A DNA stretch of 64,000 nt from an uncultured Myxococcales bacterium (GTDB lineage Bacteria; Myxococcota; UBA4151), in assembly GCA_964013405.1 (NCBI GenBank), contig CAXGWI010000001.1:50402-114401 (forward strand), given 5' to 3'. Below, in pieces: positions 17,383 through 62,633 of the stretch; the stretch's first letter is position 1, and the number at the start of each line of letters is the position of its first letter. The translations under genes were made by a program, and so were the position numbers. The notes beneath the pieces were generated by a model. It did not search any database. It was not told the origin of the DNA and saw nothing but the letters and a program-made list of their open reading frames with translations.

Positions 17383-17656
17383 AGAGCCTCCCTCAGATTC
17401 AGGTCACCAAGGACGGGATCATCACTTTGCCCATCGACCGCAACAACTCTTGCAGGCTCCATTAAGCCAACCCACTCCGTATCCACAGAAGAAAGTAATC
17501 AATATGGTCGTTATTGTCACCAAAATTCGACCAAATCGAACACTTGTTCATTTGAGACCCAAAGAGCAACGAGCACGTCGGATGGACGACGACTGGCTGG
17601 GTTTCCGCAGGTCGCTCACCCACGTCCGCTCGCCCTAGAATGAGTGCTCATGCTTC
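17383..17656. promoter_or_regulatory. AT-rich roughly 275-bp intergenic island inside the PKS cluster; probable internal promoter or regulatory leader for the FAAL-oxidoreductase genes
   Basis: It is locally low in GC (…gaagaaagtaatcaatatggtcgttattgtcaccaaaattcgaccaaatcgaac…) in an otherwise roughly 65% GC context. It lies between the ACP stop and the FAAL start. Confidence 0.35.
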
Positions 17657-17938
17657 TCAGGCCAACGAGTCGAGGGCCTGGGCCACCAGTTCTGCGACTT
17701 CACGCAGCGTTTCAGGCGGCTGATCCGGTGGTTCGTTCAAGAAGACTTGGAAGTGATTTTCCACCTCAAGGGCGAAGTTGAGCAGGCCCATACTATCGAG
17801 ACCGAGATCAGCTTGGAGGCGTGTTGACGGTGCCCAGTCTCCTGGAAGTTCGCAGTGATCCCGCAGGATCATGACCAGGTCTGAATGGATTTCGGCGAGG
17901 CGCTCAGGGGATGAACCGCCCCCTGTTTTCAAAGGCAT
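17657..17938 (-). CDS. stand-alone acyl carrier protein
   Basis: The phosphopantetheine attachment motif DLGLDSMGLLNFALEVE sits about 45 aa after the Met of MPLKTGGG…. The track ORF begins earlier (18007), but that N-terminus would overlap the methyltransferase gene. Confidence 0.7.
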   Translation of the reverse strand: MPLKTGGGSSPERLAEIHSDLVMILRDHCELPGDWAPSTRLQADLGLDSMGLLNFALEVENHFQVFLNEPPDQPPETLREVAELVAQALDSLA

Positions 17939-18464
17939 CGAGATAGCCTCCTGACTGCTCAAGGGCAGCCTCTTCTCGCCCGATGCGATGCCGCAAAAGG
18001 AGCCCATTGGCTAGGCTGAATACGAGGGCTGTCATCCAAGCTCCGCCCAGTAATGGCAGGGCTAAAATCTCCAGTACCACGCCCAGATAGTTGGGGTGCC
18101 GAATCCACCGATAAAGCCCACCCACTTGGGGCGGTGCCTCGGGCAGGATCATGATCGTGACTGTCCACCGCGGCCCAAGGGTCGAAATGGCCTCCCAACG
18201 CAAAGCTTGGCCCACAAGGAGTGCGAAGGCGCTGCTATAGACGAGCCAAGATGGTAGTTCAGTGGCAAAGAACGTGGCCTCGATGACGGCAGCGACCAAC
18301 CACAGGCTATGCAAGGCCCGCATCCAGGGCATCTGCTCTGGTGCGACTTCATAGCCTCCAGAGGCCACGATTTGGGCCTGATGCGTTGCGCTCAGGCGTA
18401 GTTCGGACAATCGCTGTAATCCAACCAGGCCAAGCAGTGCGAGGTAAGCCAGAAGAGGTGACAT
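17904..18464 (-). CDS. isoprenylcysteine carboxyl methyltransferase (ICMT)-family membrane methyltransferase (SrsB/FtpB-like)
   Basis: The RHPNYLG motif is present in a polytopic membrane protein. Its start MSPLLAYL at 18464 shares 1 nt with the PKS stop (18464-18466). Confidence 0.8.
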   Translation of the reverse strand: MSPLLAYLALLGLVGLQRLSELRLSATHQAQIVASGGYEVAPEQMPWMRALHSLWLVAAVIEATFFATELPSWLVYSSAFALLVGQALRWEAISTLGPRWTVTIMILPEAPPQVGGLYRWIRHPNYLGVVLEILALPLLGGAWMTALVFSLANGLLLRHRIGREEAALEQSGGYLDAFENRGRFIP

Positions 18465-19528
18465 CAGCCCACGCGCTCCAAGAGATTCAGCTCGGCACAA
18501 AAAGCCGGTCCCATCGCCGCCATCAGCCCCCGTTGTCCCGGGGGTGGCAAGGCTTTCAGCAATTCATGAAGAACGAACAAAACAGAGGTCGAACTCATGT
18601 TCCCATAGGTGGCCAGACTATCCCAACTCGCCTGCAGGTCAGCCTGACTCAAGCCCAGAGCTTCCTGCATGGCACCAAGGACCTTGGGGCCCCCGGGATG
18701 GGCCACGTAGAAGTCTAAGGCATCTGCGCCAAGGTCAGCATCCCGAAGCAGACCTTCCACCGCAGAGGGAAGCTCCTCTTTCACAAGACTTGGAACCTCA
18801 GGGGATAAGACAACCTTAAAGCCACTATCGACAACATCCCAGCCCATGATCCGCTCGGTCTGCGGGAAGAAGACTGAGCGCGGATGCGACCAGGCCAGTG
18901 GTGCACTCGCCGCAAGCGGATGCTCATCACCAACCATCAGCACGGCCGCACAGCCGTCACCGAAGAGGCCACTGGCGATGATATTGGCCACACTCAGGTC
19001 TTCCCGCTGTAGCGTCAGCGAACAAAGTTCAACGGAGAGGAGAATGCCAGCCTCGCCGGGGTGTCCCCGCAGATAATCCCCCAGCCGGTTCACGCCAGCA
19101 CAGCCTGCGAGACAACCAAGGCCGAACAGGGGCACTCGTTTGGTCGCTGGCGAAAACTCCAGCCGATTCATCACCCGCGCCTCAAGACTCGGGACGGCGA
19201 TCCCCGTGACCGTGGTGCTGATCACGATCGAAATCTCGTCCGGTGCCAACCCGGCCCGGGCCAGCAGGTCCTGAATCGCCGCCTCTGCCATGTCTGTCGC
19301 CACTCGGATCCACGCATCGTTATGGGCGCCAAAGCCATCGAGCGACTCGTAGGCTTCGATGGGCAGCGCAAGATGGCGGCCGCCGACCAGAACATTTCGT
19401 TGAAACTGTTCGATCCGCCCCGGGTTGTAGTAGCGCTCGCCCCAACGCTGAAGGAGGGCAGCGATGAGTTCATCTTGGCTGTATTCATGGGGCGCTAAGG
19501 CCGTTGCCGTCGAATGAATCCGGACCAT
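18464..19528 (-). CDS. type III polyketide synthase (chalcone/stilbene synthase family; alkylresorcinol/alkylpyrone synthase-like)
   Basis: The catalytic Cys context is GCLAGCAGVNRL. Also present are HPGGPKVL and YGNMSSTSVLFVL (the His/Asn triad region). The protein is 354 aa. Confidence 0.9.
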   Translation of the reverse strand: MVRIHSTATALAPHEYSQDELIAALLQRWGERYYNPGRIEQFQRNVLVGGRHLALPIEAYESLDGFGAHNDAWIRVATDMAEAAIQDLLARAGLAPDEISIVISTTVTGIAVPSLEARVMNRLEFSPATKRVPLFGLGCLAGCAGVNRLGDYLRGHPGEAGILLSVELCSLTLQREDLSVANIIASGLFGDGCAAVLMVGDEHPLAASAPLAWSHPRSVFFPQTERIMGWDVVDSGFKVVLSPEVPSLVKEELPSAVEGLLRDADLGADALDFYVAHPGGPKVLGAMQEALGLSQADLQASWDSLATYGNMSSTSVLFVLHELLKALPPPGQRGLMAAMGPAFCAELNLLERVG

Positions 19529-49102: not shown

Positions 49103-50425
49103 TCACGGCCCTCCCGAGGCCCCCTCGCCCCGTGGCGGACTCGATCGGGCCAAAACCTGGGCGAGCAAAGCCTCCCGCCCCAGACCGGCAAGCCCTTCTG
49201 CCTTTAAGCGTCGATACAGGGTCGACCGGCTAACACCGAGGCTCTTCGCCGCCTGCGTTAGATTCCCATCGTGGGCCAGGATCGAGGGCAGCAATCCCTC
49301 CTGGTCCATGGTTTGGGTCAAACCGGAGCCAAAGCGCTCGACCAGACTGAGATGGCCTGGCGAAATCTCCTGACCTTCACACAGGATGGTTGCCCGTTGG
49401 AGACAGTTCTTCAGTTCCCGAACATTACCTGGCCAGGGGTACCGTTCGAGCATCTGACGGGCGGAACCATTCAGGAAATACCCCCCACCATCCCGGTTCA
49501 AAAAAGCCGCCACCAGGCCGGGGATATCCGAGCGGCGCTGTCGCAAGGGCGGAACCTCAAGGGGAAAGACCATCAAGCGATGATAAAGATCGAGGCGGAA
49601 GCGTCCCTCTTTCACCGCCCGCTCCAAATCACGGTGCGTTGCACACACCACCCGGGCAGAAACCGTTCGCTCCCGCACTTCGCCAAGGCGCGTGACCGTC
49701 CCGCACTCGAGGACGCGTAACAACTGGGCTTGAACTTCCAGGGGCATCTCCCCGACCTCATCGAGGAACAGCGTTCCATCACGGGCCGTCTCAAACGCAC
49801 CTGCTCGGTCCCGATCAGCACCGGTAAAAGCGCCCCGCACATGACCGAAGAGTTGGCTTCCCACCAACTGGGTATTCAACGCACCACAGTTCACATTCAC
49901 GAGTTGGCCAGCCCTTCCCGAAAACTCATGGATGGCCCGGGCAACCAGTTCCTTGCCTACCCCCGATTCGCCGCGAATCACCACCGGAACCTCGGTAGGT
50001 GCCACCCGGCGCACCAAGTCGGCGAGTTGTTCCATCACCGGGTGGCTGCCAACGACACCGGGCAAAGAAGAGGAAGAGGACATCCCCTCCGGCGGAAAGG
50101 CCTCAAACAACATCACCACACCGCCGAAACGCAATTCAGCCCGGGCCGGCAGTTGCGCTCGGTCGACCCGGGCACCAGCGACGAAGGTGCCGTTCTTCGA
50201 GCCCAGGTCAACCACCTCCCAGCCCTGGGCGACTTGGCGTAGCTCGGCATGCTTTCGCGACAACCCAACCCCTTGGGGACTGATATCGTTACTCCGATCC
50301 CGGCCGATGCGGAGACATCGGACGGAAAGTGGGCGTCGCAAGACACCTGCGCCACTCAAAAATACCCGCCCTCGAGCCAGGCACTCCCGGGCCATTGAAT
50401 CCGTTTGCCGTGTCGCCATGTTCAC
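49103..50425 (-). CDS. sigma-54-dependent transcriptional activator with an N-terminal FHA domain
   Basis: The FHA domain is …LRIGRDRSNDI…LSRKHAEL…GSKNGTFV. The AAA+ sigma54-interaction motifs GESGVGKE and GAFTGA are present. A C-terminal Fis-type HTH follows. Confidence 0.9.
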   Translation of the reverse strand: MNMATRQTDSMARECLARGRVFLSGAGVLRRPLSVRCLRIGRDRSNDISPQGVGLSRKHAELRQVAQGWEVVDLGSKNGTFVAGARVDRAQLPARAELRFGGVVMLFEAFPPEGMSSSSSLPGVVGSHPVMEQLADLVRRVAPTEVPVVIRGESGVGKELVARAIHEFSGRAGQLVNVNCGALNTQLVGSQLFGHVRGAFTGADRDRAGAFETARDGTLFLDEVGEMPLEVQAQLLRVLECGTVTRLGEVRERTVSARVVCATHRDLERAVKEGRFRLDLYHRLMVFPLEVPPLRQRRSDIPGLVAAFLNRDGGGYFLNGSARQMLERYPWPGNVRELKNCLQRATILCEGQEISPGHLSLVERFGSGLTQTMDQEGLLPSILAHDGNLTQAAKSLGVSRSTLYRRLKAEGLAGLGREALLAQVLARSSPPRGEGASGGP

Positions 50426-50538
50426 CTCCCAGGTCCGAACACGGTAACGCGACTCGCTGCCAATGTCAGCCCTTGGTGACGAGACTCTGGACCTTGGGAC
50501 CCGAGGTTGCTAGCGGAGCCTCGTTGCGAGGAGGACCG
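50426..50538. promoter_or_regulatory. divergent intergenic region between the sigma54 activator and bolA-grxD
   Basis: A 113-bp gap. Confidence 0.25.
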
Positions 50539-50793
50539 ATGGACGAAGCGATGATCAGAGACCGTCTTCTCCAGGCCTTTCCAGGGGCCCATATCGAGTT
50601 GCGTGACCTGACAGGAACCCGGGACCATTGGGGCTGTACCGTCATCACAGAAGCCTTCGAAGGCTTGGGTCTAGTGGGTCGACATCAAGCGGTCTACGCG
50701 TGTTTGAACGACCTGATGGCCGGTGATAGCGCCCCCATCCACGCACTCCAACTCAATACGCTGACGCCCGATGAAATGAAGAGGGGAACATGA
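50539..50793 (+). CDS. bolA: BolA-family protein
   Basis: MDEAMIRDRLLQAFPGAHIELRDLTG…HALQL; the protein is 84 aa. The track ORF's N-terminal extension is unlikely. Confidence 0.8.
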   Translation: MDEAMIRDRLLQAFPGAHIELRDLTGTRDHWGCTVITEAFEGLGLVGRHQAVYACLNDLMAGDSAPIHALQLNTLTPDEMKRGT

Positions 50794-51116
50794 TGAGCCG
50801 AGATGTTCTGGCCGAGATCGATGAAACCGTAAAATCCAATGAGGTCGTCCTGTACATGAAGGGCACCAAAGAGTGGCCACAATGCGGCTTCTCTGATCGC
50901 GTTGTACGCATCCTCCAAGAGCAAGAGGTGGACTTCACGGACGTCAATGTCCTGGCCGACCCAGCCGTCCGCCAAGGGATCAAAGATTATACGAATTGGC
51001 CCACGATCCCCCAACTCTACATTCGTGGTGAGTTCGTTGGCGGTTGTGACATCGTCACGAACCTCCATCTAGGTGGTCAGCTCTCGAGCCTGCTGAACTC
51101 AGGGTCTGAAGGCTAG
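50790..51116 (+). CDS. grxD: Grx4-type monothiol glutaredoxin
   Basis: The CGFS active site is present in KEWPQCGFSDRV. ATGA overlap with bolA. Confidence 0.9.
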   Translation: MMSRDVLAEIDETVKSNEVVLYMKGTKEWPQCGFSDRVVRILQEQEVDFTDVNVLADPAVRQGIKDYTNWPTIPQLYIRGEFVGGCDIVTNLHLGGQLSSLLNSGSEG

Positions 51117-52705
51117 CCTTCCGGACTCCAGCCCAAGCGTCCAACGATGGCCTGGGCCACCCGCTGACCGTCCAGTGCAGCGCTCATGATCCCCCCTGCG
51201 AAACCGGCGCCCTCCCCACAAGGGTATAGGCCTGGGTGACTGGGGCTCTCCAGACTCCTTTGATCCCGCTCGATGCGGACCGGAGCAGAGCTTCTGCTTT
51301 CGGTCGCCACCAGAATCCCCTCGTCGCTCACATAGCCTTTGAGGCGTTCGTCAAAATGCTTCAGTCCCTGCCGGAGACTGTGAAGAAACGACGCTGGAAA
51401 GATGGCTTCGAAACCGTGGGGAACAAGCCCCCTCTGGTAACTGGTCGAGGGTAGGTCCTGACTGAAGCGCCCCGCAACGAAGTCGCCGACTCTCTGTGCT
51501 GGCGCCACGAATTCCCCGCCACCAGCCCGATAGGCCGCCCGTTCCACCCGCTCCTGAAGGGCCATCCCCACCAGGGGGTCTCGGTCCGGCCCGGGGCGTC
51601 CTTCCCGCTGGGCCCAAGCTGCCAGGTCGTCCGGTCGGACGGTCATCACGAGACCGGAATTAGCGTAAGGGGAGTCCCGACGAGAAAGGCTCATGCCATT
51701 GACGACCAGAGCTCCAGGTTCCGTGGCGGCCGGAACGATGTAGCCCCCGGGACACATGCAAAAACTGTAGACCCCGTGGGCCGACGTTTGGGCCGTCAAT
51801 TGGTAGAATGCCGGCGGCAAGTCGAGGGTGACGCAGCGAGCCCCGTACTGGGCTTGATCAACCATGGTCTGGGGGTGCTCGGCTCGCACACCAAGGGCGA
51901 AGTCTTTGGCCCCCAACGCGATCCCCTGCTCCTGACAAAGCCGATAGATATCCCGAGCACTGTGCCCGGTCGCCAGAATCACAGCGGCCGCTTCAACGCC
52001 TCGACCGTCAGCCAACTCGACGCCTGTGATTTGCTTTCCCGCGTCCTGCAAGAATGCGGTGACTCGAGCGCCCCATTCGTATCGTACCCCGCGGGCCTCA
52101 AGATGGGCCCGCAGGGCCATGAGTACTTTCGGCAATCGGTTGGACCCGATGTGTGGCCGACTCTCGTAAAGAATGCGTGCCGGTGCCCCAAAGGCGACAA
52201 GGCTCTCAAGGACACGCTGCACGCCCTGGCGGTCTTTCGAGCGGGTATAGAGTTTGCCGTCGCTAAACGTTCCCGCACCGCCTTCCCCGAAGCAATAGTT
52301 GCTCTCCGGATCCAACTCTCCATCCACACTCAACGCTTTCAAACTACGGCGGCGAGGCTGAACCGGTTGGCCCCGGTCGATGAGAATGGGCTGCAGACCC
52401 GCCTCAAGAAGGGCGAGGGCAGCAAAACTTCCCGCAGGGCCTGCACCGACGACTGCGACGGCGGGGCCCGATGCCTGTCGGTCACTCGGTTGCCAACGGG
52501 GCGCCGGTGTTTCGTCCGCGCCAAAGAGGGCAACCTTCAGGACCCAACTGGGCCGGCGGCGGCGGCGAGTATCTAGACTACGACGAAGCAAGAGAGGGCG
52601 ACCAGAGCGCCCCAACTCAGCACTGAGCAGGGAGACGATCTCCTCCCCCTCTGCCCGACCCAGTGGATGGTCGAGGGGTAAGCGAAGTTCGTGTTCCGTG
52701 GGCAT
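51113..52705 (-). CDS. FAD-dependent oxidoreductase (COG2509-like, NAD(P)/FAD-binding)
   Basis: The Rossmann motif is VAVVGAGPAGSFAAL. GAGTFSDGKL is present. Confidence 0.7.
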   Translation of the reverse strand: MPTEHELRLPLDHPLGRAEGEEIVSLLSAELGRSGRPLLLRRSLDTRRRRRPSWVLKVALFGADETPAPRWQPSDRQASGPAVAVVGAGPAGSFAALALLEAGLQPILIDRGQPVQPRRRSLKALSVDGELDPESNYCFGEGGAGTFSDGKLYTRSKDRQGVQRVLESLVAFGAPARILYESRPHIGSNRLPKVLMALRAHLEARGVRYEWGARVTAFLQDAGKQITGVELADGRGVEAAAVILATGHSARDIYRLCQEQGIALGAKDFALGVRAEHPQTMVDQAQYGARCVTLDLPPAFYQLTAQTSAHGVYSFCMCPGGYIVPAATEPGALVVNGMSLSRRDSPYANSGLVMTVRPDDLAAWAQREGRPGPDRDPLVGMALQERVERAAYRAGGGEFVAPAQRVGDFVAGRFSQDLPSTSYQRGLVPHGFEAIFPASFLHSLRQGLKHFDERLKGYVSDEGILVATESRSSAPVRIERDQRSLESPSHPGLYPCGEGAGFAGGIMSAALDGQRVAQAIVGRLGWSPEG

Positions 52706-52718
52706 CAGATGGCCCCGA

Positions 52719-54878
52719 CTAGAGGAGCCCGATACGGCCCAGAGGCTGGACGTTGAGATCGGGACTCAACTCTTGAAAGCTGAGTACGTCCACCTCGGGA
52801 AATTCCAACTCCACCAACTTCCGGACGAAACGTCGAACGTCCTGGGCCGTCAACAGGACGGGCCGCTGGGCCGTCGGGCTGCGGTGGCTTAAGTCCTTGC
52901 GCATGGCAGCGAGGATCTCTTGGGTGATCTCAGGCTCTAGCGCCAAAAAGGAGCCGGAAGCATTGTGCTGAATACTCGAACGGACAGTTTCCTCGATTTG
53001 ATTGTCCAGCAGGTAAACCACCAAGGTGTCCGATCCTCGGGCCGCTTGGTGGCTGATGGCCCGCCTGAGGCTCGAACGGACCTGTTCGGTCAGTTGAACC
53101 CCATCGGTTTCCACCGGACCCCACTCGGCGAGGGTCTGCAGCACGGTGCGCAGATCGCGAACCGAGACGCCTTCCTCAACCAAGCGCCGGAGAATATCGG
53201 TCAACTGAAATAGACTGACGGCTTTCGGGACGGTCTCTTTCACCAATGCCGGATAGAACTTCTCCACCTGGTCCAGCATTTCTTGGACCTCTTGGATGCC
53301 AACGAACTCGGGAGCATTGCGACGCAGCACCGCGGACACGTGGAGGACCAGATACCCGGGGACGTCCCAACAGGTGACCCCCGCGCTCTCGGCCAACATG
53401 CGGTCACTTGCATCGATCCAGGACGCTTCCGCCGAAGTGGCTGGATTCTCAGCACTGCGGGCCTCGATGCCCAACAAGCGCATCCGCTCAGGCACCTCGT
53501 TCGCAAGGACCCGGTCCGGCTCCACCGCGCCTCGAGCCACAGGGACTTCATTCACCATGATCACGTAGGAAGCAGGCCCCAAGGGTGCCCCACGAACCCG
53601 CACGCCAGGGAAACGGACGCCCAACTCGTAAAAGAGACCATCCCGCATCATGGGGATGTATTCGGCGAGAAAGGCTGCGCCCGTTTCACTGTCGTCGACA
53701 AAGGGTACCAAGTCTTCGGAGACCTCGAGGACGATGGGCGTGACGGCCTGAAGCATTTGGTCGCTCCGGCCCGCCTGGGCTTCCATCTTCCGAGCCTCCT
53801 GGACCACTTCGGTCTCCGCGGAAGCCGGTCTTTCCTCCTCCGCAATGGGATGTTCGGTCCCCCGCTTCAAATTGTAAGCGATCAGGCCCACGACCACGGC
53901 TAGGACGAGGAAGGGAAGCACCGGTAGCCCAGGGACGATCGCAAGCACCAAGAGGAACCCTGCGGCGATCATGAAGGCTTTGTGCTCGCTCAGGATCTGC
54001 CCTGCGATGTCCTCACCGAGATTTCGGTCCTCCTCCTCGCTGGAGACACGGGTCACGACGATGCCGGCGGTCACCGAGATCAGGAGGGCGGGGATCTGGC
54101 TCACGAGGCCATCGCCAATGGTCAGCAGGGAGTAAACCTGGACAGCCTCCTCACCGGTCATTCCTCGCTGCCAAACACCGATGATCATCCCGGCAACAAT
54201 GTTGATGATCGTGATCACAATCCCAGCGATGGCATCGCCTTTGACGAACTTCATGGCGCCGTCCATCGCGCCGAAGAGTTGACTCTCTCGATTCAGTTCG
54301 TTGCGCCGCCTGCGGGCTTCATCGATATCAAAAGCTCCTGCGCGCAGATCAGCGTCGATGCTCATCTGTTTGCCCGGCATCGCATCCAGGGTGAACCGGG
54401 CAGCGACCTCAGCCACCCGCTCCGAGCCCTTGGCGATCACCAAGAACTGGATCAGGGTGAGCACCAGAAAGATCACGGCACCCACCACAAAGTTCCCCGC
54501 AACAACAAAGTCACCGAAGGATTTAATGACCTCACCGGCTTGGGCCTTCAGGAGGATGAGGCGGGTTGAACTGACATTCAAAGCCAGCCGAAACAGGGTG
54601 GTCACAAGGAGAATGGTTGGGAACGCGGCCAGGCGCAGTGCGTTGGGCACATAGACGGCAACCAAAAGCAGCGTCAGAGCGATCGAAATATTGAGAACGA
54701 GGAGCAGATCGAGAAGGAAGAAGGGTAGCGGGATGATCATCATCCCGACCACGGAAACGATCAGCCCGGCCAGCAAGACGTCGCTGAAGCGGTTCAGTTG
54801 CCGCAGTAAGAGGCCGGAGCGCAGGCTCAGAAGAACTCGTTTCAGCAATTGCCCTCCACGCCTGAGGGTGGGTAGCAA
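52719..54878 (-). CDS. FHIPEP-family export-gate protein (FlhA / T3SS SctV homolog)
   Basis: FTLDAMPGKQMSIDADLRAG and GDAIAGIVITIINIVAG are present. Eight N-terminal TM helices are followed by a roughly 350-aa cytoplasmic domain. The protein is 719 aa. Confidence 0.85.
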   Translation of the reverse strand: MLPTLRRGGQLLKRVLLSLRSGLLLRQLNRFSDVLLAGLIVSVVGMMIIPLPFFLLDLLLVLNISIALTLLLVAVYVPNALRLAAFPTILLVTTLFRLALNVSSTRLILLKAQAGEVIKSFGDFVVAGNFVVGAVIFLVLTLIQFLVIAKGSERVAEVAARFTLDAMPGKQMSIDADLRAGAFDIDEARRRRNELNRESQLFGAMDGAMKFVKGDAIAGIVITIINIVAGMIIGVWQRGMTGEEAVQVYSLLTIGDGLVSQIPALLISVTAGIVVTRVSSEEEDRNLGEDIAGQILSEHKAFMIAAGFLLVLAIVPGLPVLPFLVLAVVVGLIAYNLKRGTEHPIAEEERPASAETEVVQEARKMEAQAGRSDQMLQAVTPIVLEVSEDLVPFVDDSETGAAFLAEYIPMMRDGLFYELGVRFPGVRVRGAPLGPASYVIMVNEVPVARGAVEPDRVLANEVPERMRLLGIEARSAENPATSAEASWIDASDRMLAESAGVTCWDVPGYLVLHVSAVLRRNAPEFVGIQEVQEMLDQVEKFYPALVKETVPKAVSLFQLTDILRRLVEEGVSVRDLRTVLQTLAEWGPVETDGVQLTEQVRSSLRRAISHQAARGSDTLVVYLLDNQIEETVRSSIQHNASGSFLALEPEITQEILAAMRKDLSHRSPTAQRPVLLTAQDVRRFVRKLVELEFPEVDVLSFQELSPDLNVQPLGRIGLL

Positions 54879-54908
54879 TAAAGCTGGGCCGGGGGGAAGC
54901 CTTGGGGC

Positions 54909-57125
54909 TTAGACTTCTTCGATGCCGTAATGCTTCTCTGGTGAATAGCTGCCGTAGCGCCCATACGTGCCGTAGTAGGCACCGTACTTCCCGTAACCAT
55001 AGCGGTGATAGTAGCCGTACAATCCGCCAGCGAGGACATGGGCGTTGAAGACCATGCCAAGGAGGTTAACCTTCGCCTGGTTCAGTTTCTGCGAGCAGTG
55101 GCGGATGTCCGCCTTCGTGGTCCGTCGGTGTCGCACCACCAGCAGGAGCCCATCCGTTTGATTGCCCAACACCACCGCATCCGTCACAAGGTTCACGGGC
55201 GGGGTGTCAAAGACCACCATATCGTATTGCTCGAGGAGGTGGTCCCGAACATTTCGGAAGGCCTGGGAATGGAGCAACTCCGCGGGGTTGGGTGGGTGTT
55301 TTCCGGCGGGGAGGATGTCGAGATTATCGATCCCAGTGGGCTTGCAGACCTCCTCGGCCGTGACCGTACTCGCCAGCAGGTCCGCCATCCCGGCTTTGCC
55401 TTTCAGGCCAAAGATTCGGTGCAAGCGACCCCGCCGTAAGTCCGTGTCCACGAGCAGCACTCGACTCTCGGACTGGGCCAACGTGATGCCGATGCTCACC
55501 GCCGTAAAGGTCTTGCCATCGGCCGGAGATGGGCTGGAGACCGCCAAGGTTCGTAGCGGGCGGTCAACATTCATGAACAATAGGTTTGAACGAATGGAGC
55601 GATACTGCTCCGCCATGGTGGAGCGGGACTGAAGGCCAACCGTCAACTCCGGCGGATCCGATGGCTTACGGAGCATATTCACCACACCAAGACAGGTGGT
55701 GCCCGCGATCCGTTCAACCTGCTCCACACTTTGGACAGCCGTCTGGGTCAGCTCAACAAGGATACCCAGGGCAACGGAGAAGAGAAATGCCAGTCCCCCG
55801 CCCATCAGGATATAGATCAACTTGAAGGGCCCCACGGGAATCGACGGAATGGCCGCACGGTCGAGAATCTCTACATTATTGGTTTCGAGGCGCAGGGCCA
55901 TACCAGTGGCGAGCAACTGGTCTCGCACCGACTCACGGAGCTTGTTGAGCCCCTGGCGCTCATCGACGAGTCGCTGGTAGTCCAAGGTGAGGCCCGACAA
56001 CTCAATGACCGATTCCTTGGCACGGGCGATACGACCACGAAAGCTCTGCTCTTCCCGCCCGAGACCATCACGTTCAGTTCGAAGATGCGCGATATGGTCA
56101 TCCACCAACGTTCTCTGTTCGGCCAGATGGGCCATCACTTTGTTTTCGAGTTCCTGAATCGACGGATGGTTACCGTGATAATGGGCCCGCTCCCGGGCCA
56201 GCACGGCGCGGGCCGCGGCTAGGTTTTGGCGGACGTTCAACAAGGCGGTCGAACCACTCTTCTTATCTGCGATCACCGCGGCAACTCGAGCACCGCCCTC
56301 AAGGGATTCAAGCCCCCTGATTCGCTCTTCGAGGGCCACCTTCCGGATTTGGACCTCATCCATGGCCTGGTTCAAACGGGCCAATGTCTCCCACTGAAGG
56401 GTACGGCTGTTCTCGATGTCCTTCGACAAAATGCCATTGGTTTCGCGAAAGTCAGCAATCTCCTTGTCCACTCGGTCTAACTCGCCCGTCAGGCGTTTAT
56501 CTTCAGCCTTCAGATAGCGCTCTGCGCCGGCTTCCGCTGAGGTGCGACGGGTGGCGGCCCGGCCCACATACTCCTCGGCAAAACTATTGACGATTTCCGC
56601 TGCCAGAGCCGGATTCCGGTGCCGATAAGTGACGTCGATGGCTCGAGCAAATCGCTCTCGACTCACGGCTAGATTCGAGCCGAGGACATTGAGCGTCACC
56701 CGGTGGAGGTCTGCATCCTCCTTGAGGGGGCCCAGGCTCTCGAGCCACACCTTACGGTTCATCAGATCAAGAGCGACTGCGACACGACGGGCCAAATCCT
56801 CGGAAAGTAGGATCTGCTGCTGCGTCGCAAAGAACTCTCGGGTGTTGTAGGTCGAGTAGTTGCGACTGTTGTCATCCCGCCGCTCGGTCTCCTTCAAGAC
56901 GCTGCGGGCATTCACCTCCGCCAGCACGCTGGTCTTCGCCTCGTAGATCGGCGGGATGCGGCGCACATAAACAAAGCCCATACCAGCACCCAGAAGGGAG
57001 GCCATCACAATGGGAAGCATCCAGCGACCGGTCAGTTCCGACAGCTGGGTATCTTGCTTCTGCTGTTGATCCTTGCCCGCTGGCTCTTCGACGGCCATTG
57101 AAACTCCTACGCCCCTCAGGAACAT
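54909..57125 (-). CDS. polysaccharide co-polymerase / bacterial tyrosine autokinase (Wzc/GumC-like BY-kinase)
   Basis: Two TM helices flank a coiled-coil periplasmic domain. The Walker A is SPSPADGKTFTA. The C-terminal Tyr cluster is YGYYHRYGYGKYGAYYGTYGRYGSY. The start is uncertain (the track gives 57194). Confidence 0.8.
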   Translation of the reverse strand: MFLRGVGVSMAVEEPAGKDQQQKQDTQLSELTGRWMLPIVMASLLGAGMGFVYVRRIPPIYEAKTSVLAEVNARSVLKETERRDDNSRNYSTYNTREFFATQQQILLSEDLARRVAVALDLMNRKVWLESLGPLKEDADLHRVTLNVLGSNLAVSRERFARAIDVTYRHRNPALAAEIVNSFAEEYVGRAATRRTSAEAGAERYLKAEDKRLTGELDRVDKEIADFRETNGILSKDIENSRTLQWETLARLNQAMDEVQIRKVALEERIRGLESLEGGARVAAVIADKKSGSTALLNVRQNLAAARAVLARERAHYHGNHPSIQELENKVMAHLAEQRTLVDDHIAHLRTERDGLGREEQSFRGRIARAKESVIELSGLTLDYQRLVDERQGLNKLRESVRDQLLATGMALRLETNNVEILDRAAIPSIPVGPFKLIYILMGGGLAFLFSVALGILVELTQTAVQSVEQVERIAGTTCLGVVNMLRKPSDPPELTVGLQSRSTMAEQYRSIRSNLLFMNVDRPLRTLAVSSPSPADGKTFTAVSIGITLAQSESRVLLVDTDLRRGRLHRIFGLKGKAGMADLLASTVTAEEVCKPTGIDNLDILPAGKHPPNPAELLHSQAFRNVRDHLLEQYDMVVFDTPPVNLVTDAVVLGNQTDGLLLVVRHRRTTKADIRHCSQKLNQAKVNLLGMVFNAHVLAGGLYGYYHRYGYGKYGAYYGTYGRYGSYSPEKHYGIEEV

Positions 57126-57134
57126 GGTCCCATA

Positions 57135-57914
57135 ATGCAGTCGTCCTCGCCACTCAATGGAAACCGCACCGAACCCATCTGTGAGGTTGGACACCGAGAG
57201 ACTTTGGACGACGAGCGACCCAGGGCCATCCGTAACGGTGTGGCCGTAACGCTATTTATCGGTCTCTCCAAACATTTGGCGGTGTTCTCAATTCTCCAGC
57301 CGCTGGTCGGTTTGGCAGCGGCCGCCGTGCAACTCTTCATCCCCCTCCGGGAGGCAGATCGCAGCCCATTGGGTGATGACGGTATTGGTTACCGGCTCGA
57401 CGGCATCGCTCGAGACCTGCTCTGGGCAGCCGCATTCTTCCTGCTGACAGCCATCCCATTTTGGTTTCTCCACGAGTATTGGTGGGCCTGGGTACAGAAC
57501 CGGGTGCCGGGCCAATCATCGCTGGCGATTCCGGCTGGCGACCTGAGTGTCTGGCTGCAAGTTGCCAGCCCAACGCTTGATTTGGTGGAGTTGGTGCTGA
57601 TCCACTTTCTTGCGGTCGCCCTGCCCGAGGAACTCTTTTATCGAGGCTACCTCCAACCCAGACTCTGTAGTCGCTTCCGTGACCACGCCTTGGCTTGGGG
57701 ATTCCGCTGGAACCATGGCATCGCGCTCACCGCGGCACTGTTTGCCCTCGCCCACTTTATCGGTGAGTACAATCCAGCCCGACTAGGCCCCTTTTTCCCG
57801 GCCCTTCTCTTCGGCCTGCTGCGCCGGCGGTCGGGGGGCATCGGGGGTGCCGTCTTCCTCCACGGCATGTATAATGTGCTGGGCGCCCTACTTTTTGCAG
57901 GCATGCTGGAATAA
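57135..57914 (+). CDS. CPBP-family intramembrane metalloprotease (CAAX protease-like)
   Basis: EELFYRGYL, FALAHF and HGMYN are present. Confidence 0.7.
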   Translation: MQSSSPLNGNRTEPICEVGHRETLDDERPRAIRNGVAVTLFIGLSKHLAVFSILQPLVGLAAAAVQLFIPLREADRSPLGDDGIGYRLDGIARDLLWAAAFFLLTAIPFWFLHEYWWAWVQNRVPGQSSLAIPAGDLSVWLQVASPTLDLVELVLIHFLAVALPEELFYRGYLQPRLCSRFRDHALAWGFRWNHGIALTAALFALAHFIGEYNPARLGPFFPALLFGLLRRRSGGIGGAVFLHGMYNVLGALLFAGMLE

Positions 57915-57959
57915 GTTCGCGCACCCGCCCGTTGGGCATACAAGGACGGGGGAGTTTCC

Positions 57960-58568
57960 ATGTTAAGGATCTTCGATACCAAGCGCCGCCGGTTTGAGCG
58001 AGAGGCTCTCGAGCACCTCAACGCGCTCTTTGGCCATGCCTTGCGTTTGACTCGAAATAATGAGCAGGCAGAAGACCTGGTTCAAGACACACTTCTGAAA
58101 GCCTTCAAGAACTTCGACTCCTTCAAAGAGGGAACCAACGCGAAGGCCTGGCTCATTCGGATTCTGACGAACACCTACATTAACGGTTACCGCCGCAATC
58201 AGGTGGCGAACCGGGCCCTAACTCAGCATGGCGGCGGCTTCCTCAACGACAGGGTTTCCGGCTCGATGGGCAAGGGCGGCGCGAAGGGCATGACCGATGC
58301 GGTGATGGATCGCTTCATTCGCGACGAATTGGTGGAAGCCGTCAACGAACTGCCGGACAACTTTCGCGACGTGGTGATCCTGGCTGATGTGGAAGAGTTG
58401 AGTTATCGAGAAATTGCGGATGCACTGGAGATCCCCATCGGCACGGTCATGTCCAGACTCCATCGGGGCCGACGCCTCCTCCGGGAGGCCCTCAGCGAGT
58501 TTGCCCACAGCCTGGAAGACTCAGGGTTGACCATTCTCGACCCCCACCGTCGGCAGCGCCATGGTTGA
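57960..58568 (+). CDS. ECF-subfamily RNA polymerase sigma-70 factor
   Basis: Region 2 is [11 protein letters not shown]…WLIRILTN. Region 4 is [25 protein letters not shown]. Confidence 0.9.
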
Positions 58569-59352: not shown

Positions 59353-59730
59353 ATGGATGCCCTCCACCTCCTGATCTATCTCGACGACCCCTCCCCCTGG
59401 CAGGAGTTCATCGCCGACCTAGAAGCCGGCGGCGCCACCTGCCGCTTGATCTCCGATCATCCCTCCCTGGTGGCGGCCGCGGCAGATGCGGGCCCTGAAG
59501 ACGTTATCGTGGTCGGTCAGGACCGGGTCGAGGACGAGGCTTTGGCCAAGCTCGGGCTACCTGTTTACGGCATCGAAGAGCTCGCTGCCGAGATGGGGGG
59601 GAGTCTGGTGGACCCCTTCGCACCACCGAGTCGGGCCGAAGACAGCGTGCTGGACAAGGTGGACAAGCAACTGGACCGCCTCGAAGCCGTGGTCCGAGAC
59701 TTGGAAGCACGGCGTTCCCGCTCCACCTAA
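59353..59730 (+). CDS. small hypothetical protein
   Basis: A 125-aa ORF with GC3-rich codon usage and no recognisable motif. Confidence 0.4.
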   Translation: MDALHLLIYLDDPSPWQEFIADLEAGGATCRLISDHPSLVAAAADAGPEDVIVVGQDRVEDEALAKLGLPVYGIEELAAEMGGSLVDPFAPPSRAEDSVLDKVDKQLDRLEAVVRDLEARRSRST

Positions 59731-62633
59731 TCGTCGATGAGTAGGATCTCGATCCCGCCTCCGACGGCCACAAAGCCCGTGTCGTCAACACCCGGTACCC
59801 CTTGGTGATACCAACCGTGGAGTCGCCAGACCGGATCATCGCCAAGGCCGAGTTCCGCTTTGAAGCCAGTCGCTAGGGCGCTGAATCCGTAGTCTGGGCT
59901 GAGCGCGCCCTCGTCTTCGTCGTCGTTGCCATCGACACTCGCCCAGACTTGACGAAGGACCGGCCCAATGCGCCAACCATCCCCCAGGCCGAACATCAAC
60001 TCGCCTTTGAGCTCAAACTTGCTCATCCGAGAGATGAAGAACTCGCCATCACCGATCAAGCGCAGTTCACTCGCCCCCAAAATCCCTTCATCAGACGGGC
60101 GCAGGAACACCATCCCGTTGGCACCAAAACCAACGGCGAACTGACCGTCCACAACTCCAAACTGGGCGAGCCGAGCGGTCCCGCCGAGACCGAAGCGCTT
60201 CGTGATCCAGTGCATGCCGCCCACACCAAAACACCCCCTCGTCAATCGATAGGTGCTCCCCCGGCGAGTGGACATGATCTCCCCGGTGGGTGGGAGGCAG
60301 TAGATCACCGGGGCCAGCCAACCATCCCAGTCCGTACTGTCGAAATCCCGATCGGCTCGGCCACGGTGGTTGTAGCCAAGCCAACGCCAGTCGACCCCCA
60401 GGTTGTAGCTCTGGATGGTGTCGCTGCTGCGGGAGGGGGGCATCCAAAGCCCTCCGCTAAGCGCAAGCCGGTCCGTCAGACGCAGGCGCCCCTGGAGACC
60501 ATAGGTCGTCGTACTTGAGTCCGAGTGAATCCGCAGGCTTGGGCTGAGGTGAAGTCGCTCGCCCACGAGGTAGCGGAGTCGAGCGGTCATGGCCTGACCT
60601 TCGGCATCAAACAACTGATAACCCAAGCCAAGCTCTGCTAAAGAAAGGACGCCTTCGGTGCCCCTTAGGAGCAACTCGACCCCACCTTCTTTGCCGTCCA
60701 TGCCCTGATTCTGCAGGCCCCCTAAGCTACTGCTGATCCATAGCTTGGTACTCAGTTGGGGCAAGAGCCGGCGCCGATATGCGATACCGACGCCCCGAGG
60801 TAGGAAGCCCCGGTCGACAGACCCCGGCCCTGGCAGCGAATTACCGCCCTGAATCATGGGCCCCAAAACGGTCCATTGAGACAAACCATCGACGTCCCTA
60901 CGAAGTCGGCGTTTCTCAAGGCTACGCCGCCCTAAAGCTGAGTCATCTTGGAGTTTGTAACGGGCCCGATAACTGCCGCCAGCCTCGAACTGCTGACACT
61001 GTTCGGCCGCTATATAGTTGGGCTTGCTGACTTGATAACAACTCCTGCCCGCTTCTGGAGTGAGGGTGCAGGGGGTTTTACACTTCTGTCCCTCGATTCG
61101 AACGGTGGCTCCCACCGGCTTGCCCGAGAAGGTGACCGCAGGCCGCTTACGGGCATAGATTTCAACCGGTCCATCCATGCCCCCTTTGGGAACCCTCACT
61201 TTCTTGACGGCTTTTGCGAACCGGGGATCGTTGACTGTGAGGTTGTAGCTACCAGGGACCACACTGAAGTTCGCCGGTGACTTCTGCGCAGGCTCTTGGC
61301 CGAGCTTAACGACGACCCCTTCTTCGCCGGGCGTCACCACCCGGACGATGTTGGCCTTCACAAGGCTCCACTCCTCAGTGACCTCTCGCCGCTCTTTCAC
61401 CTGCATGTCGTGAACCTGGCTACCGTAGCCTGTCTTGCTCACGATCACCCGATAGCCGCCTGTGGGGAGCAGCCCCACGAAAGGCGTGCTCTCCTTATGA
61501 ACCTTACCCGGCTCAGCCAGTGACTCGAAGCGCAACTCAGCACCAGGCGGCCGGGTCATGACCGCGACATCCCCCATCTTGCGCTCCATTTCGATGCGTA
61601 ACTCGGTTCGGGTTTGGGGCCGAATCTTCACATTACGACGCACGGTTTTAAACAGAGGGTGCTCAACCCTCACGGCCATGCTGCCGGCCGGTTGTCTCTG
61701 GATAATCTTGGGCGTGATGCCCACCGAGTCCCTTCGGTTTAATGTGATCCGAGCACCGGCCAGTGGTACGGTCACCACCTTCAAGCTGCCAAAGTTGGGT
61801 TCCAACGTCACTCGAAGTTGCATGGGGCCTGCGGGCACCTCGACATTCTGTTCAACGGCTGCATAGAGCGGGTGGTCGATGCGGAGGCGATATCGGCCGG
61901 ACTTGACTGGTTTTTGAAAAATTCCATCGGGGCCAATCTGACCGACGGTCCTGCGGTCGAGCTGGACCCGCGCTTGGGGTGCGTTACAGTCTACCAACAA
62001 AATCCCCCGTCGGCCCTGCTTAACCCCCCCCGATGCTTTGACCACCTCCAAGGTGGAGGACTGACTTCCCCTCCCCCGTCGCTTCTCCGTAATCTGCACG
62101 CCGAGCCCACCGATCAAACGCCCGGTGGCCTCTTTGACCTTCTCCTCACCCTTCGAGGTGGCGAGGCTGCCCACATCATCCAATGTAAGGCGGGTCTGTT
62201 CCACCAATTCGACGGCGCCTTCGTTGAGCCGCTTTAAAGTCAGCGTGACCTGGCCTCGGGCACAATCGAAACGTTGTTCCAGGTAGATCTTCGCCTGGGC
62301 TCGTCGAGCGATTTGGGCACAGCTTTGATCACTGCAAGCCGTCTCCTTCTCCGAACGGCTTGAGAAGGCCTGCATCAGGGTGATCAGATCCGCACCCTGA
62401 ATGAGCACGTAGCGATTCTTGGGCAGGTGGCGAAGGAACTGCTCCTCCAAGAGCTGGGTCAAATACACCATATCCTGCGGGGTGGCGCAGCTGGCCTGGC
62501 GGGAGTCCGCGTAAAAGATAGCAACCCGCTCTCGCTCCCAGCCTGTGCCCTGGGCCTGGGCCCTTGGACTCAAGAAAAGAATCACACTGCAAAGCACAGC
62601 AAGAATGGACTGAAGTCTAAGCTTGAGCATCAC
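59727..62633 (-). CDS. large secreted PEGA-domain protein with a C-terminal beta-rich (outer-membrane-like) domain
   Basis: The signal peptide is MMLKLRLQSILAVLCSVILFLSPRAQAQG. PEGA-like beta-sandwich modules repeat (…RVQLDRRTVG…YRLRIDHPLY…, …VRVEHPLFKTV…). The C-terminal region is Gly/aromatic-rich. Confidence 0.6.
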   Translation of the reverse strand: MMLKLRLQSILAVLCSVILFLSPRAQAQGTGWERERVAIFYADSRQASCATPQDMVYLTQLLEEQFLRHLPKNRYVLIQGADLITLMQAFSSRSEKETACSDQSCAQIARRAQAKIYLEQRFDCARGQVTLTLKRLNEGAVELVEQTRLTLDDVGSLATSKGEEKVKEATGRLIGGLGVQITEKRRGRGSQSSTLEVVKASGGVKQGRRGILLVDCNAPQARVQLDRRTVGQIGPDGIFQKPVKSGRYRLRIDHPLYAAVEQNVEVPAGPMQLRVTLEPNFGSLKVVTVPLAGARITLNRRDSVGITPKIIQRQPAGSMAVRVEHPLFKTVRRNVKIRPQTRTELRIEMERKMGDVAVMTRPPGAELRFESLAEPGKVHKESTPFVGLLPTGGYRVIVSKTGYGSQVHDMQVKERREVTEEWSLVKANIVRVVTPGEEGVVVKLGQEPAQKSPANFSVVPGSYNLTVNDPRFAKAVKKVRVPKGGMDGPVEIYARKRPAVTFSGKPVGATVRIEGQKCKTPCTLTPEAGRSCYQVSKPNYIAAEQCQQFEAGGSYRARYKLQDDSALGRRSLEKRRLRRDVDGLSQWTVLGPMIQGGNSLPGPGSVDRGFLPRGVGIAYRRRLLPQLSTKLWISSSLGGLQNQGMDGKEGGVELLLRGTEGVLSLAELGLGYQLFDAEGQAMTARLRYLVGERLHLSPSLRIHSDSSTTTYGLQGRLRLTDRLALSGGLWMPPSRSSDTIQSYNLGVDWRWLGYNHRGRADRDFDSTDWDGWLAPVIYCLPPTGEIMSTRRGSTYRLTRGCFGVGGMHWITKRFGLGGTARLAQFGVVDGQFAVGFGANGMVFLRPSDEGILGASELRLIGDGEFFISRMSKFELKGELMFGLGDGWRIGPVLRQVWASVDGNDDEDEGALSPDYGFSALATGFKAELGLGDDPVWRLHGWYHQGVPGVDDTGFVAVGGGIEILLIDD

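What the first reader, a model, noticed from the sequence alone, without database searches (positions are those of the whole stretch)
51113..57194. Orphan FlhA/SctV (FHIPEP) export-gate homolog sandwiched between a Wzc-type tyrosine autokinase and a FAD oxidoreductase
A full-length FHIPEP protein with intact FlhA signature motifs lies 30 nt downstream of a BY-kinase/co-polymerase gene and 13 nt upstream of a flavoprotein, all on one strand. No other type III secretion or flagellar genes occur anywhere in the window, and myxobacteria lack flagella. A stand-alone export gate next to polysaccharide-export machinery could be a decaying T3SS remnant. Alternatively it could be an exapted membrane component of an EPS/secretion pathway. 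Either would be notable.
Basis: partly seen in the sequence, partly recalled or inferred. Interest (0 to 1): 0.6.

Follow-up and report, generated by a model that had tools for sequence, protein, structure and literature searches.

The report
Lone but intact type III export-gate gene
This is a fully intact, strongly conserved SctV gene (the export gate of a type III secretion system) from an uncultured myxobacterium-like organism. It sits apart from the other secretion genes most likely because this lineage scatters them around the chromosome, so it is a fairly ordinary finding.

Summary
Three minus-strand genes lie head to tail: a Wzc-like tyrosine autokinase (54909-57098), a full-length FHIPEP protein (52719-54848) and a FAD-dependent protein (51113-52705). 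No other type III or flagellar gene was found in the 64 kb.

The FHIPEP protein is SctV (injectisome type), not FlhA. It is not decaying:
- It keeps all 71 near-invariant FHIPEP residues.
- It is the slowest-evolving gene at the locus (78-79% amino-acid identity to orthologues, against 46-62% for six neighbours; dN/dS about 0.1).

The tight Wzc-SctV-flavoprotein arrangement is specific to this strain. Two related genomes carry the same genes, but sctV faces the other way or lies four genes from Wzc.

Related uncultured Myxococcota show the ancestral layout sctU - LcrH-like chaperones - sctV. They also show repeated moves of sctV out of it. One MAG carries a lone sctV on one contig and that cluster minus sctV on another. 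Cultured Bradymonadia also scatter their needle-less T3SS genes.

Best reading: this is the export gate of a dispersed needle-less T3SS, not a remnant and not an EPS component. The rest of the system could not be located in this genome. One oddity remains: a sister lineage has a conserved lexA | sctV-wzm-wzt arrangement.

The parts
52719..54848 (-). sctV: type III secretion export-gate protein (FHIPEP family), 709 aa from a TTG start. The longest ORF extends to 54878.
   Evidence: PF00771 at 791 bits over the full profile. TIGR01399 SctV at 827 bits, above the 692 cutoff; the FlhA model scores below its cutoff. Identical to P0001. Matches full-length YscV (7ALW) over residues 10-703. Keeps 71 of 71 conserved columns. 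dN/dS is 0.07-0.11.
54849..54908 (-). 60-nt Wzc-sctV spacer, with a GGAGG ribosome-binding site at 54857-54853, 4 nt before the TTG start.
   Evidence: Sequence read. No terminator-like or sigma-70-like site here. No sigma-54 consensus.
54909..57098 (-). Wzc-like polysaccharide co-polymerase / bacterial tyrosine (BY) autokinase, 729 aa. The longest ORF extends to 57194.
   Evidence: Pfam Wzz, GNVR and AAA_31. TIGR01007 at 175 bits, above the 108 cutoff. Walker A (SPADGKT), Walker A' (LLVDTDLRRG), Walker B (VVFDTPP) and a C-terminal Tyr cluster are present. Start as called in L087.
51113..52705 (-). FAD-dependent protein of unknown substrate (FAD-depend_C family). Its start lies 13 nt after the sctV stop.
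   Evidence: PF21688 at 220 bits, plus DAO and Pyr_redox_2. Junction read. Orthologues in L081 and L082 are divergent from sctV.
50539..51116 (+). bolA (50539-50793) and a monothiol CGFS glutaredoxin (50790-51116), convergent with the flavoprotein gene. They belong to the block that is shuffled among relatives.
   Evidence: ORFs and translations. Homology to the Grx and BolA genes of L081 and L082.
49103..50425 (-). FHA-domain sigma-54 enhancer-binding protein. It is the conserved left border of the shuffled block, and in L081 it lies directly downstream of sctV.
   Evidence: Pfam FHA, Sigma54_activat and HTH_8. Orthologues in L081 and L082.
57135..58568 (+). Rce1-like CAAX protease and an ECF sigma factor. 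They form the conserved right border of the locus, divergent from Wzc.
   Evidence: Pfam hits. Conserved in L081, L082, L083 and L087.

Best explanation
The gene encodes a functional SctV. SctV forms a nonameric inner-membrane ring that sits beneath the SctRST(U) export gate. It couples proton-motive force to substrate export and docks chaperone-substrate complexes. Here it most likely belongs to a needle-less, secretin-less type III-like system (T3SS*) of the kind myxobacteria use in contact-dependent killing of prey.

In this uncultured Myxococcota lineage the system's genes are dispersed. SctV has been moved out of the ancestral sctU - LcrH-like chaperone - sctV cluster. It now lies in a rearrangement-prone housekeeping locus between an FHA-sigma-54 activator and a Wzc-like kinase.

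In this strain sctV is probably read through from the Wzc gene and into the flavoprotein gene. That co-transcription is a recent local accident, not a functional module.

Shown: identity, integrity, purifying selection, absence of partners in the window, non-conserved operon structure, and relocation with persistence of the sctU cluster in sister lineages.

Inferred: that this genome also holds the remaining T3SS genes elsewhere, and that the system acts in predation.
For: Identity and integrity:
- SctV equivalog passed and full-length FHIPEP match.
- Best solved match is full-length YscV.
- 71 of 71 columns that are at least 95% conserved in 150 diverse FHIPEP proteins are kept.

Selection:
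- dN is 0.17-0.19 for sctV against 0.29-0.53 for six neighbouring genes.
- dN/dS is 0.07-0.11.
- Amino-acid identity is 78-79% against 46-65% for the neighbours.

Operon not conserved:
- Window: EBP(-) BolA(+) Grx(+) FADox(-) SctV(-) Wzc(-).
- L082: EBP(-) Grx(-) BolA(-) FADox(-) SctV(+) Wzc(-).
- L081, flipped to match: EBP(-) SctV(-) FADox(+) PAP2(+) BolA(+) Grx(+) Wzc(-).

Phylogeny and context:
- The window clade is sister to clades B1 and B2.
- B1 and the outgroups have sctU 3-4 kb upstream, with TPR proteins whose best NCBIfam match is the LcrH/SycD chaperone.
- B1 sctU and sctV share contigs, judged by matching contig lengths.

Dispersal demonstrated:
- MAG GCA_043821645.1 has a lone sctV on contig 70 (L175). 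On contig 134 (L176) it has the orthologous sctU-151aa-TPR-...-TPR cluster without sctV.
- Two further MAGs pair a family SctV with a lone-type SctU. This is inferred from neighbouring NCBI protein accessions.
- A large family of lone sctU genes keeps the NPxH autocleavage motif.

Literature:
- Cultured Bradymonadia have sctN, sctV and sctR/S hundreds of kb apart (PMC11509652, supplementary file 6).
- The Myxo T3SS is conserved and functional (PMC3459982).
- M. xanthus T3SS* acts in prey lysis (PMC10433427).
Against: - No other T3SS gene of this genome, or of any clade-A genome, was found. The clade-A contigs are at most 64 kb, and the searches that could have found such genes were exhausted.
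- No sctU on the 6.98-Mb B2 contig that carries a lone sctV (L085) appeared in the top-120 lists. This is not decisive, because the lists are truncated.
- The source organism's class within Myxococcota was not determined, so transfer of the Bradymonadia and M. xanthus biology is by analogy.
- The tight spacing (60 nt and 13 nt, no terminator) is compatible with real co-expression with Wzc and the flavoprotein.
Confidence: 0.72

Rival explanations
1. SctV has been recruited (exapted) as a membrane or energising component of a polysaccharide export pathway. It would work with the Wzc-like kinase here and with a Wzm/Wzt ABC exporter in the sister lineage, independently of a type III apparatus.
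For: - Here sctV is adjacent to, and co-directional with, a Wzc-like BY-kinase.
- In sister clade B2 the arrangement pyrH | lexA | sctV - ABC2_membrane - ABC_tran - sugar genes recurs in L085, L169 and L170. Between sctV and the permease gene there is a 4-nt overlap in one locus and 6- and 9-nt gaps in the others.
- L168 has sugar-biosynthesis genes next to sctV.
- The ABC pair is KpsM/Wzm-like and TagH/Wzt-like.
Against: - The Wzc adjacency is not an operon in relatives: it is convergent in L082 and four genes away in L081.
- The window has no Wza, Wzx, Wzy or glycosyltransferase cluster.
- Other lone sctV contexts have no polysaccharide genes. L175 has antiporter subunits and an LRR protein; L088 has a pheT-like gene and an M16 peptidase.
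- The whole cytoplasmic chaperone-docking domain is conserved as in true SctV.
- A genome with a lone sctV still holds the sctU-chaperone cluster.
- B2 synteny may be simple inheritance within one family.
Confidence: 0.08
2. SctV is the sole survivor of a lost T3SS. It is retained for a T3SS-independent role, for example as an ion-conducting membrane ring, without any link to polysaccharide export.
For: - There are no partner genes in 64 kb.
- No clade-A sctU was recovered.
- Strong purifying selection shows that the gene does something.
Against: - All substrate- and chaperone-docking regions are conserved at the level of bona fide SctV. That is not expected if only the channel function were kept.
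- Sister lineages with a lone sctV keep sctU and LcrH-like chaperones.
- Abby and Rocha found that NF-T3SS loci which lose function are rapidly deleted (PMC3459982).
Confidence: 0.12
3. The gene is a decaying T3SS remnant, on its way to becoming a pseudogene.
For: Only its isolation from other T3SS genes in the window.
Against: - The ORF is uninterrupted and matches the full-length profile.
- 71 of 71 invariant columns are kept.
- dN/dS is about 0.1, and sctV is the slowest-evolving gene in the locus.
- Orthologues are kept intact across genomes whose neighbouring genes have diverged to about 50% identity.
Confidence: 0.02

Closest known systems
SctV of the myxobacterial needle-less T3SS* (the M. 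xanthus MXAN_2434-2464 cluster; the 'Myxo' NF-T3SS of Abby and Rocha 2012)
   Same: It is an SctV-type FHIPEP export gate in a non-flagellated Myxococcota organism. Related lineages have sctU and LcrH-like chaperones but no secretin or needle genes nearby (PMC3459982; PMC10433427).
   Different: In M. xanthus sctV lies inside one large cluster with sctD, J, I, Q, R, S, T, U, N and L. Here it is alone in at least 64 kb. In the NJ tree this family groups nearer to Archangium-MAG and Chlamydiae sequences. Its relation to the M. xanthus copies was not tested.
Scattered T3SS of Chlamydiales (CdsV) and of cultured Bradymonadia
   Same: T3SS core genes are split over several distant loci while the system remains functional. 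Chlamydial SctV is the closest non-Myxococcota relative (48% identity). Bradymonadia have sctV hundreds of kb from sctN and sctR/S.
   Different: In the Chlamydiae loci fetched here (L003, L007) sctU lies directly upstream of sctV. Here even that pair is broken. Whether the window organism is a bradymonad is unknown.
YscV / LcrD of Yersinia (PDB 7ALW, full-length nonamer)
   Same: Best solved-structure match: 641 bits, aligned over residues 10-703, covering both the membrane and cytoplasmic domains.
   Different: YscV belongs to a complete injectisome with needle, secretin and translocon. No such genes are seen here.
Wzc (E. coli) and the BtkA/BtkB-type BY-kinases of Wzx/Wzy-dependent polysaccharide pathways
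   Same: The upstream neighbour has a Wzz/GNVR periplasmic region, a Walker A/A'/B kinase domain and a C-terminal tyrosine cluster.
   Different: It scores far below the Wzc equivalog cutoffs (160 bits against 1068). It is not next to Wza, Wzx, Wzy or glycosyltransferases in this window.

Membership tests
FHIPEP / SctV (non-flagellar T3SS export gate) | Full-length match to the FHIPEP profile, covering the N-terminal membrane domain and the C-terminal cytoplasmic domain | tested here: met
   PF00771 at 791 bits, profile positions 1-656 of 657. Aligned to full-length YscV 7ALW over residues 10-703.
FHIPEP / SctV (non-flagellar T3SS export gate) | Scores above the curated SctV equivalog threshold | tested here: met
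   TIGR01399 at 826.6 bits against a cutoff of 692.25.
FHIPEP / SctV (non-flagellar T3SS export gate) | Family-invariant residues retained (for example RFxLDAMPGKQMxIDA and GxMDGAxKxVxGD) | tested here: met
   71 of 71 columns that are at least 95% conserved among 150 diverse FHIPEP proteins are kept.
FHIPEP / SctV (non-flagellar T3SS export gate) | Encoded together with, or in the same genome as, SctR, S, T, U and the ATPase SctN | tested here: not met
   None in the 64-kb window. Presence elsewhere in the genome is not testable with these tools. In a sister-clade MAG the sctU cluster is on another contig.
FHIPEP / SctV (non-flagellar T3SS export gate) | Forms a nonameric ring and supports secretion | not testable with these tools
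   Needs biochemistry or genetics.
FlhA (flagellar export gate) | Scores above the curated FlhA equivalog threshold and lies in a flagellar gene context | tested here: not met
   TIGR01398 at 679.9 bits, below the cutoff of 772.1. No flagellar genes in the window.
Myxobacterial needle-less T3SS* | Inner-membrane and cytoplasmic T3SS components (SctD/J/I, Q, RSTUV, N, L, LcrH-like chaperones) present, with no secretin, needle or translocon | not testable with these tools
   Only sctV is visible for this genome. Sister lineages show sctU plus LcrH-like TPR proteins (86-92 bits to TIGR02552, below the 104.8 cutoff) and no secretin within 10 kb.
Wzc-type BY-kinase / PCP-2a (upstream neighbour) | Tyrosine-autokinase domain with Walker A, A' and B motifs and a C-terminal Tyr cluster | tested here: met
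   TIGR01007 at 175 bits, above the 108 cutoff. Motifs and the Tyr-rich tail were read.
Wzc-type BY-kinase / PCP-2a (upstream neighbour) | Periplasmic Wzz/GNVR co-polymerase domain | tested here: inconclusive
   Wzz at 25.0 bits against a cutoff of 25.5; GNVR at 21.4 against 27.7. TIGR03017 EpsF matches over residues 120-504 at 82 bits, below its cutoff.
Wzc-type BY-kinase / PCP-2a (upstream neighbour) | Encoded within a Wza/Wzx/Wzy polysaccharide gene cluster | tested here: not met
   No Poly_export, Wzy, flippase or glycosyltransferase cluster among the 47 window ORFs scanned.
FAD-dependent protein, FAD-depend_C family (downstream neighbour) | FAD-binding Rossmann N-terminus plus the PF21688 C-terminal domain | tested here: met
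   PF21688 at 219.9 bits; DAO, Pyr_redox_2 and FAD_binding_3 also hit. No NCBIfam equivalog was reached.

The most novel reading that the evidence does not exclude
In this Myxococcota radiation the SctV ring has been independently wired to polysaccharide export machinery. Here it would work with a Wzc-like co-polymerase/kinase. In the sister clade it would work in a conserved sctV-wzm-wzt operon. SctV would then act as a PMF-coupled or scaffold component of glycan secretion, alone or in addition to its T3SS role.
Probability: 0.07. Interest if true: 0.8.

Novelty: new member of a known kind. Interest (0 to 1): 0.3.

Why it matters
For this window, it matters little: the gene is a normal, selected SctV. 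Its isolation fits a known pattern of scattered T3SS genes in Chlamydiae and Bradymonadia.

The wider survey adds a modest point for T3SS evolution. In a large group of uncultured Myxococcota the ancestral sctU-chaperone-sctV unit has been broken several times. SctV behaves as a self-contained, relocatable gene. Pipelines that require clustered genes will therefore under-call these needle-less systems.

The repeated landing of sctV beside polysaccharide exporters is a cheap hypothesis to test. If it were real, it would be a new use for an export-gate protein.

Tried and rejected
1. Synteny of Wzc and FADox with SctV across 80 genome loci: none outside the window's own clade.
2. Metagenome scan for close relatives.
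3. Contig-length matching to place sctU on the same contigs as lone sctV genes. It worked for clade B1 but gave no match for B2 or clade A, and the lists are truncated at 120.
4. Repeats flanking sctV that could explain the inversions: only chance-level matches.
5. Promoter and terminator scan at the junctions: nothing at the Wzc-sctV or sctV-FADox spacers.
6. Sigma-54 promoter search upstream of sctV in the window and ten relatives, prompted by the adjacent EBP: none.
7. Rfam and tRNA scans of the window: nothing.
8. E1-dehydrogenase genes near the lone sctU (L171, L173) and near a B2 sctV (L169) looked like a synteny link. They are only 39% identical, so they are paralogues.
9. The taxonomic class of the source organism could not be fixed. 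The best named relatives are 'Myxococcota bacterium' and 'Deltaproteobacteria bacterium' MAGs.
Full report
**What is there**

The window is about 60% G+C throughout. Three long minus-strand ORFs occupy 51113-57194.

- The middle ORF (52719-54878) matches the FHIPEP profile end to end: 791 bits, profile positions 1-656 of 657.
- Against NCBI's curated models it passes the SctV/HrcV equivalog (826.6 bits, cutoff 692) and fails the FlhA equivalog (679.9 bits, cutoff 772). It is an injectisome-type SctV, not FlhA.
- The best solved-structure match is full-length YscV (7ALW), aligned over residues 10-703.
- An identical 709-aa protein (P0001) is on record from an independent metagenome assembly.
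- Its start corresponds to the TTG at 54848, preceded by GGAGG four bases upstream. The real spacer to the upstream gene is therefore 60 nt.

The upstream gene (54909-57098) has these features:
- weak Wzz and GNVR hits;
- a tyrosine-autokinase domain above threshold (TIGR01007, 175 bits against a cutoff of 108);
- Walker A, A' and B motifs;
- a C-terminal tyrosine cluster.

The downstream gene (51113-52705) starts 13 nt after the sctV stop. It is a FAD-dependent protein of the FAD-depend_C family.

**Is sctV alone?**

I predicted 48 ORFs across the window and scanned 47 of them against Pfam. None belongs to a type III or flagellar family.

The window contains no other T3SS-related gene and no polysaccharide cluster. 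Apart from housekeeping and miscellaneous genes, the relevant neighbours are:
- an FHA-sigma-54 activator;
- a sulfatase;
- bolA and a monothiol glutaredoxin, found on the plus strand at 50539-51116;
- an Rce1-like protease;
- an ECF sigma factor;
- a PEGA-domain protein.

phmmer searches with the lineage-specific proteins of the related sctU clusters also found nothing in the window apart from SctV itself. An independent 8.5-kb contig (L087) is 99.99% identical and collinear. The arrangement is therefore real.

**Is it decaying?**

No. Three results rule this out.
- In an alignment with 150 diverse FHIPEP proteins, flagellar and non-flagellar, 71 columns are at least 95% conserved. The window protein keeps all 71, in both the membrane and cytoplasmic domains.
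- Against its orthologues in two related genomes (L081, L082) SctV is 78-79% identical, with dN of 0.17-0.19 and dN/dS of 0.07-0.11. dS is saturated, so the ratio is only approximate.
- Six neighbouring genes are 46-65% identical in the same comparisons, with dN of 0.29-0.53.

SctV is the slowest-evolving gene at the locus.

**Is Wzc-SctV-flavoprotein a module?**

No. The nearest relatives (SctV 78-79% identical) carry the same gene set between the same borders. The left border is sulfatase and the FHA-sigma-54 activator. The right border is Wzc, Rce1 and the ECF sigma factor. The inner block, however, is shuffled:

| Genome | Order and strand |
|---|---|
| Window | EBP(-) BolA(+) Grx(+) FADox(-) SctV(-) Wzc(-) |
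| L082 | EBP(-) Grx(-) BolA(-) FADox(-) SctV(+) Wzc(-) |
| L081 (flipped to match) | EBP(-) SctV(-) FADox(+) PAP2(+) BolA(+) Grx(+) Wzc(-) |

- In both relatives sctV is divergent from the flavoprotein gene.
- In L082 sctV is convergent with Wzc. In L081 it is four genes away from Wzc.
- The co-directional, tightly spaced trio is therefore peculiar to this strain or species.
- There is no terminator or promoter consensus in the two spacers. Read-through transcription here is plausible, but it is not an ancient arrangement.
- No repeats flank sctV, and no sigma-54 promoter was found.

**Wider family and context**

The protein search returned a very large family of SctV proteins, 62-66% identical to the window's. 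They come from uncultured Myxococcota or 'Deltaproteobacteria' MAGs. An NJ tree places the window clade (A) as sister to two clades, B1 and B2.

*Clade B1* (for example L086, from an 11.5-Mb contig):
- It has sctU 3.6 kb upstream, in the order sctU - 151 aa - TPR - 407 aa - TPR - sctV.
- Both TPR proteins hit the LcrH/SycD T3SS chaperone model best (86-92 bits, below the 104.8 cutoff).
- The outgroups also have sctU upstream. These are the Archangium MAGs L001 and L030, then L090 and L092, then Chlamydiae.
- This layout is therefore the likely ancestral one.
- B1 sctU and sctV share contigs, judged by matching contig lengths.

*Clade B2:* sctV is alone here too.
- In L085 (a 6.98-Mb contig), L169 and L170 the layout is pyrH | lexA | sctV - ABC2_membrane - ABC_tran, followed by sugar-nucleotide and glycosyltransferase genes.
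- Between sctV and the permease gene there is a 4-nt overlap in L170 and gaps of 6 and 9 nt in L169 and L085.
- The ABC pair is KpsM/Wzm-like and TagH/Wzt-like.
- L168 has lexA-sctV next to sugar genes but lacks the ABC pair.
- Two other lone sctV contexts, L175 and L088, have no polysaccharide genes.

**Do genomes with a lone sctV still have the rest of the system?**

Searching with the B1 SctU, and then with a profile of the next-best group, revealed a large family of lone sctU genes. Those examined (L171-L174) lie near pilMNOPQ-efp, with no sctV within the fetched flanks (up to 10 kb). They keep the NPxH autocleavage motif.

NCBI protein accessions link SctV and SctU within the same MAGs:

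| SctV accession | SctU accession |
|---|---|
| MCP4500475 | MCP4500506 |
| MFH1810087 | MFH1812338 |
| MEW5853632 | MEW5855004 |

I confirmed one of these pairs directly. Assembly GCA_043821645.1 holds:
- a lone sctV on a 106-kb contig (L175);
- on a 124-kb contig (L176), a cluster orthologous to the B1 cluster gene for gene, but without sctV.

In a sister lineage, therefore, the lone state means relocation, not loss of the system.

The literature agrees:
- Supplementary tables for cultured Bradymonadia list sctN, sctV and sctR/S at loci hundreds of kb apart or on different scaffolds (PMC11509652).
- Chlamydial T3SS genes are scattered (PMC3459982).
- The needle-less myxobacterial T3SS is conserved and functions in prey lysis (PMC3459982; PMC10433427).

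**Mechanism, with what is shown and what is inferred**

*Shown:*
- The SctV gene is intact and under purifying selection.
- It has no partner genes within 64 kb.
- Its local operon structure is not conserved.
- sctV has been relocated repeatedly in the family.
- The sctU-chaperone cluster persists in at least one genome that has a lone sctV.

*Inferred (about 0.7):*
- This genome likewise encodes SctRSTU, SctN and chaperones elsewhere.
- SctV assembles as the nonameric export gate of a needle-less T3SS* used against prey.

*Not excluded:*
- A T3SS-independent role (about 0.12).
- A link to polysaccharide export (about 0.08). This is suggested by the Wzc neighbour here and the sctV-wzm-wzt arrangement in clade B2.

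A decaying remnant is effectively ruled out.

**Limits**

- No T3SS partner gene could be located for clade A itself.
- The tree is neighbour-joining only.
- dS is saturated.
- The organism's class within Myxococcota is undetermined.

**Verdict**

This is a new member of a known kind: an SctV of a dispersed, needle-less myxobacterial-type T3SS. Interest is low to moderate. The recurrent neighbourhood with polysaccharide exporters is the one thread worth a cheap follow-up.

Noticed in passing
L085 10001-14268; L169 9038-13662; L170 9094-13691; L168 9228-12130: In a sister clade of uncultured Myxococcota, a lone sctV lies in a conserved arrangement: pyrH | lexA | sctV - Wzm-like permease - Wzt-like ATPase, followed by sugar-biosynthesis genes. 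The junction between sctV and the permease gene ranges from a 4-nt overlap to a 9-nt gap. By eye, a TTGAC(C/G)-N17-TAnnnT box lies between lexA and sctV.
   Followed up: partly
L171 10001-11065; L173 10001-11164; L176 6213-7277: There is a large family (more than 120 clusters) of lone sctU genes, 354-400 aa, with a conserved NPxH motif. In the contexts examined (L171-L174) they lie downstream of pilMNOPQ-efp, beside two conserved unannotated divergent genes of about 360 aa and 265-290 aa, with no sctV in the fetched flanks. The roughly 360-aa neighbour is also conserved next to sctU in L086 and L176.
   Followed up: partly
window 49103-57098, compared with L081 and L082: The block between the FHA-sigma-54 activator and Wzc ({bolA-grx}, {FAD protein}, {sctV}) is arranged three different ways in three related genomes. 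No flanking repeats are detectable. It looks like a local rearrangement hot spot.
   Followed up: partly
window 50539-51116 (+): A bolA and monothiol (CGFS) glutaredoxin pair is present. My first gene call missed it, because a spurious 124-aa antisense ORF (50694-51068) was picked instead. The 3' end of the pair overlaps the flavoprotein gene's 3' end by 4 nt.
   Followed up: yes
window 15649-19528 (-): A small secondary-metabolite-like set: a type III polyketide synthase (chalcone/stilbene synthase-like), a carrier protein (PP-binding) and an AMP-binding enzyme.
   Followed up: no
window 2747-3720 (-): An EutN/CcmL-type microcompartment vertex protein lies next to a class II aldolase. No other shell proteins are seen in the window.
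   Followed up: no
window 59727-62633 (-) and 8016-9884 (+): A 968-aa protein with PEGA and CarboxypepD_reg domains, and a Ser/Thr kinase with a PEGA domain. There is also a 658-aa protein with GYF_2 and zinc-ribbon domains at 3923-5899. These are typical Myxococcota-style signalling and surface proteins.
   Followed up: no
L175 12328-14550 (-): A 740-aa leucine-rich-repeat protein lies convergent with the lone sctV of MAG GCA_043821645.1. It could be an effector-like protein or a coincidence.
   Followed up: no
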